A stretch of DNA of 64,000 bases from NCBI RefSeq assembly GCF_055900595.2, contig NZ_CM148325.1. One strand, 5' to 3'. The position numbers are program-made. Below, piece after piece: positions 40,801 to 43,800 of the stretch. Each line of letters begins with the position of its first letter. Within the stretch, counting starts at the first letter, position 1.

Positions 40801-43800
40801 TAAATATTTGTATTCGTAATACGTCCTAACAGTTTTAGTAAACAAACTGGTATCAGAGAAAACCACTGAGTCTTCTGATATTATTTTAATCCATGATAAG
40901 TCACATCCTGCTGAAATTTCTATTTGCTCATTGAGCACAAAACCGGAAAGAATTTTAATTATGCAAAAATCAATGCCATTTTTCCATAGTGGACGCAGTG
41001 CAACAGCTGAGTTTAGAGCATCACTAATAGATTTAAAATTACCATATTCCCCAACTGTTATTGTGAATGCATACCTGGAATTAAATACTGCGGCACTCTC
41101 TCCAGAGTTAATAGCTGCAGATATCATGTCATAATTTGATATAAAATCATTTGGCGTGATTATTTCTGCGTTTTTATTGTGCTGTGTTCTAAGTTTTGAA
41201 TTTACATGAACACTTTTAACTGCAATACGGGAGTCGTCAACAAGTATTTCATTACCCTCTGTTGCTAACTCTTGTCTTAACTGATCCGGGTCATACTTCA
41301 GCACATTCGGAAAATAGAACTGCTGCACACCGTACGCATCATAAACAGCCATAGAATGGCCCTGTACAGTAACGAATTTGGCAATCTGTCCGTTATATAC
41401 CGGATATCCAGCAGCGTTAATGATGATTGGTTGCGAAACAGGAACGTGAGATCCATCTTCGTTCTCTACATAAACCTGAATCTGGTTTTCAGGATTTACA
41501 GGGGCAGTATCAATTTTACCGATATAAATTTTGCCATTGGCTACGGCTTTAAAAGAACGCGCCATAGTGAAGAGTTGCGAAGGCATACTCACTACAACAT
41601 TGGCTGTAATGTCTGTCATTTAATTTGCTCCAGATACAAGGAATCGCCGCAGCATTGCCACAGTGATGCATTATTAATCAAACAAAGAGACCACTGTGGT
41701 CTTATTGAGGATGCAACCAGCAGATAATAAGATGCCGATCCACTCACAAAAGCGAGGCATCAAGAATGGGAAGAGATGACCCGCAATTTAATCTGCGGCT
41801 ACCTTACGAATTAAAGGAAAAACTAAAACAGCGAGCCAAATCCAATGGCCGCTCTCTTAATTCAGAATTAGTTCAGATAGTGACTGATGCTGTATCAAAG
41901 CCATCCAAAATTTCAGGCTATCGAGACGATGCGGAACGCATCGCTGATGAGCAGTCAGAGCTTGTTAAGAAGATGGTGTTTGATACGCTGAAGGATTTGT
42001 ACAAAAACCCACCTGATGGTGGGTTCCATTTATTAGTCTTGCTTTGTGGACGGTATAAGGGATGCATTTGCCTCTTTAGGCTTCAAGGTATACATCCCAC
42101 CATTAAATGGATCTACAGCAAGCCAACCAATTAACCCACCAAACACAAGGTTTCCACCAATATACCAACCATTAGCATTGGCTTTGATTGGCAGGGTAAC
42201 TGGTTCGTACCCATCCTTCTCCATAGTGATCTGGTAGCTCTTTTTGCCAAAATAACTACCATCTGACTTGGCAAGAGTTACTCCTTGCGGGGTCTTACCT
42301 TGCGCAACAATCACGCCTGATTCGTCTTTTACCTTAAAGCTCGCACCGGAAGGATTGCTGTTCACTTGCACAAGCTGTGTTTCGTCACCAACAATAGTTG
42401 CGCACCCAGATAACATGATAACGCCAGCAACGACGCCAATAATCCTCTTCATATCAATTTCCATATTTAAAAAACCGGAAACATCCTAATGACAAACCAT
42501 TCAAATGTGAAGTAGGCAAAAGATGTTTACTTTTTTCATGGTATCCTGCTCAAAACTAAGGAGGTTGGCGTGAAGCAATTTCTTACTGCTATGTTCTTAT
42601 TCATATCTTTTGGGGCTACAGCAGAGTGCTGGGTCGTTGGAGATATGCGCGGAATAAGCTATTCAGAACGAAATAATTTCCATCCGGAAGAAGATGGTTT
42701 TAGTGGAACATTCATCATTAAGACAAACGGTGAAGATGCCAGCATCACATATTCTGGGACAGATGCGGGCGGCATGGCTTACAAAGCATTGTCTAAAAAC
42801 TCCATCATAGGAATCGGCGCGAATGGCGAAACTCAACGCGTTATCGACTCATGGGTAATACATCCTACTGGAACAGTTTTAATGTCAAAAACCATTTCCG
42901 GTTATGGAAATATGGATTCAACCAAAGCTTTTGTTGGAAAAGTAAAAAGAAAATGTTAGCGATTGAATCCAATTTCCCATACGTTACTGCTGTGTTGCCT
43001 CAGTAGCAAACAGCGGTCTGATGGCATTCGCAGCGTTATTTATCGCTCTTTCATAGGCTGGTGTTCCTGCTTTGGTGTTTGCCAAACGAAGAAGCATATT
43101 CCTTGCTGCTTTGGACTCATACAAGCGCATCATTGCACCAAAACCAGCCTCAATCCCCATTGATACGCCAAGGGTCGCAGTTGCGCCAATCGTCCTTATC
43201 CTGTTGGCTTGCGATTGCCCCGTCTGAGTTACTACATTTGCGGTGTCTGACCTTGCTGTTTGCTGTAGAACTTCATGAAGAGCATCAAGCTCTTTCATGT
43301 GCTTTCCAGAAAAAATAGTGTTGTAAATTTCACCGCCTGACTGAGATTTCAGCTTATTAACTTCAGTGATGAACTTGGCTGGAGAGTCCCCGGCCTTTTC
43401 CGCTATTTTGCTGACGTAAGCTGCACGCATAGCATCTTTCCCCTTATCATCCAGTGCGCTCCAGATTCGTTTCACGTCAGATGGTTTTCTGCTTAATACA
43501 ACGGTATTTATAAGTTCAGGACTGGCTTCACTGCTTGCCTTGTTGAGCTTGTTGGCAATGTTTTTATTAAGCACCTTATTATAAACGTTTGCATAATCGG
43601 AATTTGCTTTAAGGTATTTTGCTGCGTCTGATGCACCGAGGTTTTTAGCAACTGCGTTACGAAGGTCTTTTGACATTGCATTCTCTACCATATTGGTAGC
43701 TGCTTTTGCCTGGTTGGGGAAGACCATAGCATCTCCCTGAACATTAGATCTAAATGCTGTTCTGTGCTGACGCAAGAGATCAAACGTAACATCCAAATCA

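What the first reader, a model, noticed from the sequence alone, without database searches (positions are those of the whole stretch)
41620..42134. Orphan Mnt-like repressor divergent from the tailspike gene, with a candidate operator and a 40-aa read-through extension across a terminator
The first 80 residues of the Mnt homolog align with P22 Mnt, but it then continues ...KDLYKNPPDGGFHLLVLLCGRYKGCICLFRLQ... for 40 more codons. The extension reads through a hairpin (AACCCACC-TGAT-GGTGGGTT at ~42005-42030) that is the minus-strand terminator of the convergent lipoprotein gene, and overlaps that gene antisense by ~100 nt. This suggests a lost stop codon. No arc or ant gene is present. A perfect palindrome AGACCAC-T-GTGGTCT (41688-41702) sits in the 146-bp gap between the tailspike start and mnt, resembling Omnt in layout. 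Mnt may directly gate tailspike/late-operon read-through here, or be a relic.
Basis: partly seen in the sequence, partly recalled or inferred. Interest (0 to 1): 0.5.

Follow-up and report, generated by a model that had tools for sequence, protein, structure and literature searches.

The report
Frameshifted orphan Mnt repressor gene
A P22-like prophage in E. coli carries the known "mnt-only" remnant of the phage's second immunity region, and its odd 42-residue tail comes from a one-base deletion near the end of the gene, so the finding is ordinary with a few instructive details.

Summary
ORF 41766-42134 (+) encodes residues 1-80 of an Mnt repressor and then 42 extra codons. These read through the terminator hairpin (42006-42025) and overlap the convergent lipoprotein gene antisense by 102 nt. 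No stop codon was mutated. One A is missing from an A6 run (now A5, 42003-42007), so the ancestral TGA in the hairpin loop (42014-42016) is out of frame. Relatives encode an 83-aa Mnt ending KKPT*. The allele is real: the exact 122-aa protein is on at least 24 contigs from independent samples. All those examined are one near-identical phage lineage, against at least 1000 contigs for the intact form. It is a lineage-specific lesion, not a conserved variant. The palindrome (41688-41702) aligns column for column with P22/epsilon34 Omnt. Its half-sites are nearly invariant across 38 haplotypes while the centre base takes all four values, and it covaries with Mnt residue 6 (Gln with GACCAC, His with GTCCAC). 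Every Gln6 Mnt of the P22-like class surveyed lacks arc and ant and abuts the tailspike, as published for phages L and ST64T. The ancestral Pant hexamers are gone and no second operator exists, so direct control of the tailspike is not supported.

The parts
39562..41619 (-). Tailspike gene (685 aa) with a P22-type head-binding N-terminal domain; divergent from mnt.
   Evidence: ORF. Pfam Head_binding matches residues 1-113, E 2e-65. PGAP names it 'phage head-binding domain-containing protein' in EC332.
41620..41666 (-). Conserved tailspike (gene 9) leader with RBS GGAG (complement of 41629-41632). It is homologous to the P22/epsilon34 gene-9 leader up to the point where those phages carry the ant terminator.
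   Evidence: blastn: 89.7% identity to epsilon34 and 85.5% to P22, with homology ending at window 41666.
41688..41702 (.). Mnt operator (Omnt equivalent) of the Gln6 specificity class: AGACCAC-T-GTGGTCT, conserved core GACCAC-N-GTGGTC.
   Evidence: Aligns column for column with P22/epsilon34 Omnt. Found at -79 from the ATG in nearly all Gln6 loci. Half-sites are near-invariant and the centre base takes all four values among 38 haplotypes. The same operator lies in front of arc-ant in L096, L149 and L160.
41705..41733 (+). Pmnt-like promoter TTGAGG-17-TAAGAT, at the position of P22 Pmnt (TTGAGA-17-TATCAT). The complementary Pant hexamers are degenerate (TCGGCA / TGCATC).
   Evidence: Read against the P22 annotation. 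It scores 8 of 12, below the scanner's threshold. It is conserved as two haplogroups among orphan loci. Promoter activity is inferred, not shown.
41766..42005 (+). Native part of mnt: codons 1-80, comprising the ribbon-helix-helix DNA-binding domain and the tetramerisation helix.
   Evidence: Pfam. PDB 1mnt and 1qey. 100% identical to the 83-aa E. coli allele over residues 1-80.
42003..42007 (+). A5 run: the site of the 1-nt deletion (A6 in relatives) that causes the frameshift. It also forms the U-tract of the minus-strand terminator.
   Evidence: Alignment with E. coli E1, phage 720R6 and epsilon34. None of about 75 other Gln6 loci has A5. Only 1 of 189 complete E. coli genomes matches the window exactly here.
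42006..42025 (.). Terminator hairpin AACCCACC-TGAT-GGTGGGTT. It terminates the lipoprotein gene on the minus strand and probably also ends mnt transcripts on the plus strand. The ancestral mnt stop TGA lies in its loop at 42014-42016, now out of frame.
   Evidence: epsilon34 annotates the homologous hairpin as a Rho-independent terminator.
42006..42134 (+). Frameshift extension: 42 codons plus stop, in the +1 frame of the ancestral sequence, antisense to the lipoprotein gene from 42033 onward.
   Evidence: The same frame is interrupted by stops after 8-33 codons in many relatives, so it is not a conserved coding frame.
42033..42464 (-). Convergent lipoprotein gene, homolog of epsilon34 gene 15. 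The lipobox is LSGC. The PGAP start gives 139 aa (42033-42452).
   Evidence: ORF. tblastn 99% to the epsilon34 locus. Annotations.

Best explanation
The region is the 'mnt-only' form of the P22 immI region (the 'ant moron') in a P22-like (Lederbergvirus) prophage integrated between ybhC and ybhB. It holds a Gln6-class Mnt repressor gene, its cognate 15-bp operator and a Pmnt-like promoter. The arc-sar-ant-Tant block is absent, so the operator lies 68 bp from the tailspike start codon.

The 122-aa ORF is not a new protein form. One A was deleted from an A6 run three codons before the normal stop. That stop (TGA) lies in the loop of a terminator shared with the convergent lipoprotein gene. The deletion puts translation into the +1 frame, and the ribosome reads 42 more codons through the hairpin and antisense into the lipoprotein gene.

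The allele is genuine and heritable. It marks one phage lineage that has lysogenised at least two different E. coli backgrounds. The native Mnt C-terminus is therefore dispensable for lysogeny and spread of this ant-less phage.

The following steps are inferred, not shown:
- The intact module is a working repressor-operator pair that acts on its own promoter.
- It can silence in trans an incoming phage whose ant gene sits behind the same operator type.
- In the frameshift allele, transcripts that end at the hairpin lack an in-frame stop, which would lead to tmRNA tagging and a lower Mnt level.
- Only read-through transcripts would yield the 122-aa protein.
For: - Frameshift: alignment shows TACAAAAAACCCACCTGA in E1, 720R6 and epsilon34 against TACAAAAACCCACCTGA in the window. 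Relatives encode 83 aa ending KKPT*. PGAP marks the identical gene in EC332 as a pseudogene.
- Rarity: 1 of 189 complete E. coli genomes carries the window's exact sequence here. None of about 75 other Gln6 loci has A5.
- Reality and clonality: the exact 122-aa protein is on at least 24 contigs in 29 index blocks. The five loci examined are 99.9-100% identical to the window over 4.4-6.4 kb. The intact allele is on at least 1000 contigs.
- Two hosts: window and EC332 differ by 1 nt across 39,000-60,000 but by about 4-5% in the adjacent host DNA.
- Operator: positional homology with Omnt, conservation pattern, and covariation with residue 6 in three lineages.
- Known architecture: all Gln6 P22-like loci lack arc and ant and abut the tailspike. 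ST64T is the same. Published for ST64T, ST104 and Para1 (PMC2629481) and phage L (PMC8022706).
- Arc-ant block missing: leader homology to P22/epsilon34 stops at 41666, where they carry Tant.
- Purifying selection: pN/pS is 0.18-0.25 among 31 unique orphan CDS.
Against: - No experiment shows that this Mnt binds the palindrome or that Pmnt is active. The promoter scores only 8 of 12 and was not called by the scanner.
- The trans-immunity role has thin support. Gln6-type operators in front of arc-ant were found on only 3 IMG/VR contigs, whose nearest named relative is an Erwinia phage. No close match to that arc-ant region was found in 5426 complete E. coli genomes.
- pN/pS is about 1.5-2 times higher than in ant-linked His6 mnt (0.09-0.13, from only 8 sequences). 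Nonsense and frameshift alleles recur. Constraint therefore looks somewhat relaxed.
- The tmRNA scenario depends on the plus-strand efficiency of a hairpin whose downstream tract (CCAUUUAUUA) is only moderately U-rich.
Confidence: 0.85

Rival explanations
1. Mnt bound at the operator gates tailspike expression. It would do so either by repressing a promoter that reads into the tailspike gene or by blocking late-operon read-through.
For: - The operator is 68 bp upstream of the tailspike ATG, with no terminator between them.
- The Gln6 mnt-operator module is always next to the tailspike head-binding domain.
- Villafane et al. 2008 speculate that the ant moron and its repressors modulate late transcription into gene 9.
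- No other operator copy exists in the prophage or in ST64T, so any cis target must be local.
Against: - The ancestral Pant hexamers are degenerate: TTGACA became TCGGCA and TATATT became TGCATC.
- The scanner finds no promoter-like site on the minus strand in 41620-41766.
- No promoter-like element between operator and tailspike is conserved between the E. coli and Salmonella haplogroups.
- From general knowledge of lambdoid phages, late transcription is Q/gp23-antiterminated and resists obstacles.
- The frameshift lineage spreads normally.
Confidence: 0.12
2. The whole mnt-operator module is a functionless relic of a degraded immI region, retained only through linkage to the tailspike gene.
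For: - Arc, ant and sar are gone.
- Pseudogenised alleles recur: this frameshift lineage, other frameshifts at the same run, and two nonsense alleles, one of them with a mutated operator.
- Zaworski et al. 2020 list 'remnant' as one option for phage L.
- pN/pS is higher than in ant-linked mnt.
Against: - pN/pS is 0.18-0.25.
- More than 95% of surveyed alleles are intact at 83 aa.
- Operator half-sites are near-invariant while the centre base and the tailspike-side flank vary freely.
- The module persists across E. coli and Salmonella phages in many mosaic contexts.
Confidence: 0.12
3. The 122-aa protein is a selected neomorphic Mnt with a new C-terminal domain, or the two forms are produced by programmed frameshifting or transcriptional slippage at the A-run.
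For: - The allele persists on at least 24 contigs.
- Frameshifts at the same A6C3 run recur in other backgrounds.
- A hairpin follows the run immediately.
Against: - All 122-aa carriers examined are one near-clonal phage.
- The extension frame is closed by stops after 8-33 codons in many relatives.
- The extension is antisense to a conserved gene, matches no Pfam or PDB entry, and is Cys-rich and hydrophobic.
- From general knowledge, A5 or A6 is too short for efficient slippage, and the hairpin begins inside the run rather than 5-8 nt downstream of it.
Confidence: 0.04
4. The missing A is a sequencing or assembly error in a homopolymer.
For: The change is a single-base indel in a homopolymer. 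Only one complete E. coli genome shares it.
Against: - The same allele appears in independent NCBI assemblies and in Logan assemblies of several sequencing runs.
- The EC332 50-kb neighbourhood shows only two pseudogenes, so that assembly is not riddled with indels.
Confidence: 0.02

Closest known systems
The mnt-only 'ant moron' of Salmonella phages L, ST64T, ST104 and ST160/SE1 (Villafane et al. 2008, PMC2629481; Zaworski et al. 2020, PMC8022706)
   Same: - Position between the ejection-protein genes and the tailspike.
- mnt divergent from the tailspike by about 135-147 bp.
- No arc, sar or ant.
- Identical Mnt N-terminus (MGRDDPQFNLRLPYELKEK).
- Same operator core GACCAC-N-GTGGTC at -79.
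- Same tailspike leader.
   Different: - Here mnt carries a 1-nt deletion that replaces the last 3 residues with 42 others.
- The downstream neighbour is the epsilon34 gene-15-type lipoprotein rather than the ST64T orf.
- The C-terminal half of ST64T Mnt is a different mosaic segment.
P22 / epsilon34 immI region (mnt-Omnt/Oarc-arc-sar-ant)
   Same: - Mnt is 76% identical over residues 1-80, with both Pfam domains.
- The operator sits at the homologous position next to the Pmnt -35.
- In epsilon34-type relatives, the terminator hairpin holds the stop codon in its loop.
   Different: - Arc, sar, ant, Tant, Oarc and a recognisable Pant are all absent.
- The operator half-site is GACCAC instead of GTCCAC.
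- Mnt residue 6 is Gln instead of His, giving the strand PQFNLRLP, like Arc's PQFNLRWP.
Gln6-type complete immI regions on IMG/VR contigs L096, L149 and L160 (nearest named relative Erwinia phage Midgardsormr38)
   Same: Same operator AGACCACCGTGGTCT. Mnt N-terminus MARDDPQFNLRM (Gln6, Leu9).
   Different: - They keep TTGACA at Pant, plus arc and ant.
- Their repressor has an unrelated C-terminal part (81 or 128 aa).
- No close match to the L149 arc-ant region was found in complete E. coli genomes.

Membership tests
Mnt repressor (Arc/Mnt ribbon-helix-helix family, P22 immI) | N-terminal ribbon-helix-helix DNA-binding domain | tested here: met
   Pfam Arc PF03869 matches residues 3-50, E 8e-22. 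PDB 1mnt aligns to residues 3-77, E 2e-33.
Mnt repressor (Arc/Mnt ribbon-helix-helix family, P22 immI) | C-terminal Mnt tetramerisation helix | tested here: met
   Pfam Repressor_Mnt PF11423 matches residues 53-80, E 3e-18. PDB 1qey aligns to residues 53-81.
Mnt repressor (Arc/Mnt ribbon-helix-helix family, P22 immI) | Native length of 82-83 aa, ending KK(P/T)T followed by a stop | tested here: not met
   122 aa, because of a 1-nt deletion in the A-run. Relatives are 83 aa.
Mnt repressor (Arc/Mnt ribbon-helix-helix family, P22 immI) | Symmetric operator upstream of mnt, next to the Pmnt -35 | tested here: met
   The palindrome 41688-41702 aligns with P22/epsilon34 Omnt. It is conserved and covaries with residue 6.
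Mnt repressor (Arc/Mnt ribbon-helix-helix family, P22 immI) | Specific binding to the operator and repression of Pant | not testable with these tools
   Needs EMSA, footprinting or reporter assays. In addition, the Pant hexamers are degenerate here.
Complete immI region (mnt-arc-sar-ant) | Arc and ant genes and sar RNA between mnt and the tailspike | tested here: not met
   No Arc or Ant tblastn match other than mnt itself. No Rfam match in 39000-45000. Only 146 bp separate mnt from the tailspike gene.
mnt-only ant moron (phage L / ST64T type) | mnt divergent from and adjacent to the tailspike, no arc or ant, Gln6-type N-terminus with a GACCAC-N-GTGGTC operator | tested here: met
   Literature.
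Intrinsic (Rho-independent) terminator | G+C-rich hairpin followed by a U-tract | tested here: met
   On the minus strand: a 9-10 bp stem, loop AUCA, then UUUUUGU. epsilon34 annotates the homologous hairpin as a terminator. The plus-strand tail CCAUUUAUUA is weaker. Termination itself was not measured.
Programmed ribosomal frameshift / transcriptional slippage site | Conserved second frame with a suitably spaced stimulatory structure | tested here: not met
   The extension frame is interrupted by stops in many relatives. The hairpin begins within the run.

The most novel reading that the evidence does not exclude
Gln6 'orphan' Mnt modules, present on thousands of E. coli and Salmonella P22-like prophage contigs, are stand-alone trans-acting immunity devices. 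They silence the antirepressor genes of incoming phages that carry the GACCAC-type operator. Natural covariation (His6 with T, Gln6 with A at half-site position 4) defines separate immunity-I specificity groups. The A6C3 run at the gene's end, embedded in the terminator, is a recurrent on/off mutational hot spot.
Probability: 0.2. Interest if true: 0.45.

Novelty: new member of a known kind. Interest (0 to 1): 0.22.

Why it matters
- It settles the flagged oddity. The long Mnt is a frameshift allele, which PGAP already calls a pseudogene in EC332, sitting in a published gene arrangement.
- The survey gives sequence evidence bearing on a small open question raised for phage L and ST64T: is the lone mnt a relic or functional? 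The evidence is purifying selection, a conserved operator with a freely varying centre base, and residue-operator covariation across three lineages. All of it points to a working repressor-operator pair whose target is not in its own genome.
- The frameshift lineage is a natural hypomorph or knock-out that could be used to test this.

Tried and rejected
- Second operator copies: none with up to 2 mismatches in the window, the rest of the EC332 prophage, or the ST64T genome. Mnt therefore has no other cis target, including the KilAC 'antirepressor' gene in the nin region.
- Promoter toward the tailspike: the scanner found none. By eye I saw only isolated -10-like hexamers without a -35, and none conserved between the E. 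coli and Salmonella haplogroups.
- The operator palindrome as a minus-strand terminator: flagged (6-bp stem plus CUUUGUUUGA), but the U-rich tail is absent in the Salmonella haplogroup. Rejected.
- A second half-operator-like site, GCCACAGTGAT at about 41656-41667: not conserved in ST160. Rejected.
- E. coli phages with ant behind a Gln6 operator: CUS-3 proved to be His6-type, with an extra RHH gene. The L149-type immI has no close E. coli match.
- Rfam scan of 39000-45000: nothing relevant, and no sar.
- The primary papers on Mnt residue contacts (Knight & Sauer 1989, 1992) are not held in the library. Statements about Arg2, His6, Asn8 and Arg10 contacts rest on my own knowledge. The reference list of PMC3413123 confirms that Knight & Sauer 1989 and Raumann et al. 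1995 exist.
- I first assumed the window was EC332. Direct comparison disproved this.
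Full report
**What is in the sequence**

ORF 41766-42134 (+) encodes 122 aa. Residues 3-50 match Pfam Arc and residues 53-80 match Pfam Repressor_Mnt. The solved Mnt structures 1mnt and 1qey align to residues 3-77 and 53-81.

Upstream on the other strand is a 685-aa tailspike gene (39562-41619) with a P22-type head-binding domain. Downstream and convergent is a lipoprotein ORF (42033-42464, lipobox LSGC), the homolog of epsilon34 gene 15.

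The hairpin AACCCACC-TGAT-GGTGGGTT lies at 42006-42025. On the minus strand it is followed by UUUUUGU, 7 nt after the lipoprotein stop. The palindrome AGACCAC-T-GTGGTCT lies at 41688-41702, inside the 146-bp intergenic gap.

**Origin of the extension**

I aligned the window with E. coli strain E1, phage vB_EcoP-720R6 and Salmonella phage epsilon34. Those three read TAC AAA AAA CCC ACC TGA. The window reads TAC AAA AAC CCA CCT GAT ..., so one A is missing from an A6 run (42003-42007).

The relatives encode an 83-aa Mnt ending ...LYKKPT*. Their stop codon sits in the loop of the terminator hairpin. In the window that TGA (42014-42016) is still present but out of frame. Translation continues for 42 codons in what is the +1 frame of the ancestral sequence.

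That frame is not a conserved coding frame. In many relatives it closes after 8-33 codons. The tail matches nothing in Pfam or the PDB.

**Is the allele real, and how common is it?**

- Among 189 complete E. coli genomes that hold this segment, only EC332 matches the window exactly. PGAP marks the EC332 gene as a pseudogene.
- None of about 75 other Gln6-type loci from IMG/VR and GenBank phages has A5.
- The window is not EC332. The two are identical except for 1 nt across 39,000-60,000, but differ by about 4-5% in the adjacent host DNA. The window's host segment is 100% identical to other E. coli strains.
- The exact 122-aa protein is on record on at least 24 contigs in 29 index blocks, from independent NCBI assemblies and sequencing runs.
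- The five loci I examined are 99.9-100% identical to the window over 4.4-6.4 kb.
- The intact 83-aa allele is on at least 1000 contigs.

The deletion is therefore a true mutation. It marks one phage lineage that has entered at least two host backgrounds at the same site. In EC332 that site lies between ybhC and ybhB, with the integrase next to ybhC.

Other frameshifts at the same A6C3 run occur in other backgrounds, giving 98-, 94- and 89-aa products plus one deletion in the C-run. The run therefore looks like a mutational hot spot.

**The operator**

The palindrome aligns column for column with the annotated mnt operator of P22 and the corresponding site in epsilon34. It sits immediately before a Pmnt-like TTGAGG-17-TAAGAT (41705-41733).

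- All Mnt proteins starting MGRDDPQFNLRLPY (Gln at mature position 6) have GACCAC-N-GTGGTC at -79, apart from a few with one mutated half-site base.
- All Mnt proteins starting MARDDPHFNFRMPM (His6) have GGTCCAC-N-GTGGACC at -74.
- Among 38 distinct upstream haplotypes of the Gln6 class, the half-sites are nearly invariant. The centre base takes all four values, and the tailspike-side flank is highly variable.
- Three IMG/VR contigs carry a distantly related Gln6 repressor (MARDDPQFNLRM, about 58% identity) with exactly AGACCACCGTGGTCT in front of a TTGACA -35, arc and ant.
- A Ca. Phlomobacter Mnt with Gln6 has ATATCAC-C-GTGATAT, again with A at half-site position 4.

Gln6 therefore goes with A, and His6 with T, at that position in independent lineages. 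This fits residue 6 being a specificity determinant. That role rests on my own knowledge of Youderian et al. 1983 and Knight & Sauer 1989/1992; the papers themselves were not available.

The Gln6 strand PQFNLRLP is identical to Arc's PQFNLRWP at the Gln, Asn and Arg positions.

**The 'orphan' status**

In every Gln6 locus of the P22-like class (about 65 IMG/VR loci plus ST160, ST64T, 720R6 and E. coli genomes) arc and ant are absent. The tailspike start lies 136-148 bp upstream of mnt, or about 425 bp where an AT-rich insertion is present. Every His6 locus has ant, and most have arc.

The window's tailspike leader (41620-41666) is homologous to the P22/epsilon34 gene-9 leader up to the point where those phages carry the ant terminator. 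The arc-sar-ant-Tant block is what is missing.

This arrangement is published. Villafane et al. 2008 note that the ST64T, ST104 and Para1 'ant morons' contain only mnt. Zaworski et al. [quoted passage not shown] ST64T Mnt and its operator belong to the Gln6 class.

**How it most likely works**

Shown:
- A repressor gene under purifying selection. pN/pS is 0.18-0.25 for 31 unique orphan sequences, against 0.09-0.13 for eight ant-linked His6 sequences.
- A conserved cognate operator.
- No second operator anywhere in the window, the rest of the EC332 prophage, or ST64T.
- At the ancestral Pant position the hexamers read TCGGCA and TGCATC instead of TTGACA and TATATT. No promoter-like site toward the tailspike is called or conserved.

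Inferred:
- The intact module binds its operator beside Pmnt and so acts on its own promoter.
- It can act in trans on incoming genomes with the same operator type. This is the classical job of Mnt in P22 lysogens.
- Support for a trans role in E. coli is thin. The only Gln6 operators found in front of ant are on contigs whose nearest named relative is an Erwinia phage. CUS-3 is His6-type.

For the frameshift allele:
- Residues 1-80, including the tetramerisation helix, are intact.
- mnt transcripts that end at the hairpin would lack an in-frame stop. I predict tmRNA tagging and a low Mnt level, with the 122-aa protein made only from read-through transcripts. This is untested.
- Because there is no ant to derepress, loss or weakening of Mnt carries no obvious penalty. 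This fits the lineage's spread.

**Rivals**

- Tailspike gating is not supported by the promoter evidence, but a roadblock effect is not excluded (0.12).
- A pure relic is unlikely, given the selection signals on the gene and the operator (0.12).
- A selected neomorph or programmed frameshift is unlikely (0.04).
- A sequencing artefact is excluded for practical purposes (0.02).

**Verdict**

This is an ordinary lineage-specific frameshift in a known, widespread gene arrangement. The by-products worth keeping are the natural Mnt-operator specificity classes and the evidence that the lone mnt is still a working module.

Noticed in passing
window 39,000-60,000 versus 30,655-39,000 (EC332 loci L217 and L224): The window's prophage is identical to that of E. 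coli EC332 except for 1 nt over 21 kb, while the adjoining host DNA differs by about 4-5%. The same phage has therefore lysogenised two different E. coli backgrounds at the same site. In EC332 that site is between ybhC and ybhB, the lambda attB neighbourhood, with the integrase next to ybhC.
   Followed up: partly
proteins P0003, P0005, P0008, P0009: Independent frameshifts hit the same A6C3 run at the end of mnt in other phage backgrounds. They give 98-, 94- and 89-aa products, and one is a C-run deletion (KKPPDGG...). The run embedded in the terminator looks like a recurrent mutational hot spot.
   Followed up: partly
L009:230-340 (Ca. Phlomobacter fragariae contig): A third Mnt operator type, ATATCAC-C-GTGATAT, lies upstream of an Mnt starting MARDDPQFNFRMPH, next to an arc-like gene. 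It may represent a further specificity class.
   Followed up: no
window about 61,698-62,420 (-): The prophage carries a KilAC-domain 'antirepressor' gene (Roi-like) in its nin region. A KilA-N domain gene follows the lysis genes in the EC332 annotation. Neither has a Gln6-type Mnt operator nearby.
   Followed up: partly
L223:2720-3249 (phage CUS-3): CUS-3 has two tandem ribbon-helix-helix genes, both annotated mnt. The first is an unrelated 85-aa RHH protein; the second is a His6 Mnt. They are divergent from ant with no arc, and about 480 bp of 'boundary sequence' lies between. The same layout appears in L081-L085.
   Followed up: no
L034 and L064, about 280 bp between the tailspike leader and the tailspike start: Some Gln6 orphan loci have an AT-rich stretch of about 280 bp with no convincing ORF, inserted between the conserved leader and the tailspike head-binding domain.
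   Followed up: partly
window 42570-42959 (+) and 39266-39565 (-): Two small uncharacterised genes flank the module. One is a 129-aa secreted-looking protein between the lipoprotein gene and gene 16. The other is a 99-aa hydrophobic protein just downstream of the tailspike, at the prophage end. Neither has a Pfam match.
   Followed up: no
L075 and L080 (IMG/VR): Two orphan mnt alleles carry a nonsense codon at position 53. In L075 the operator also has a mutated half-site (GACCACCGTGATC). This looks like joint decay of the gene and its site.
   Followed up: no
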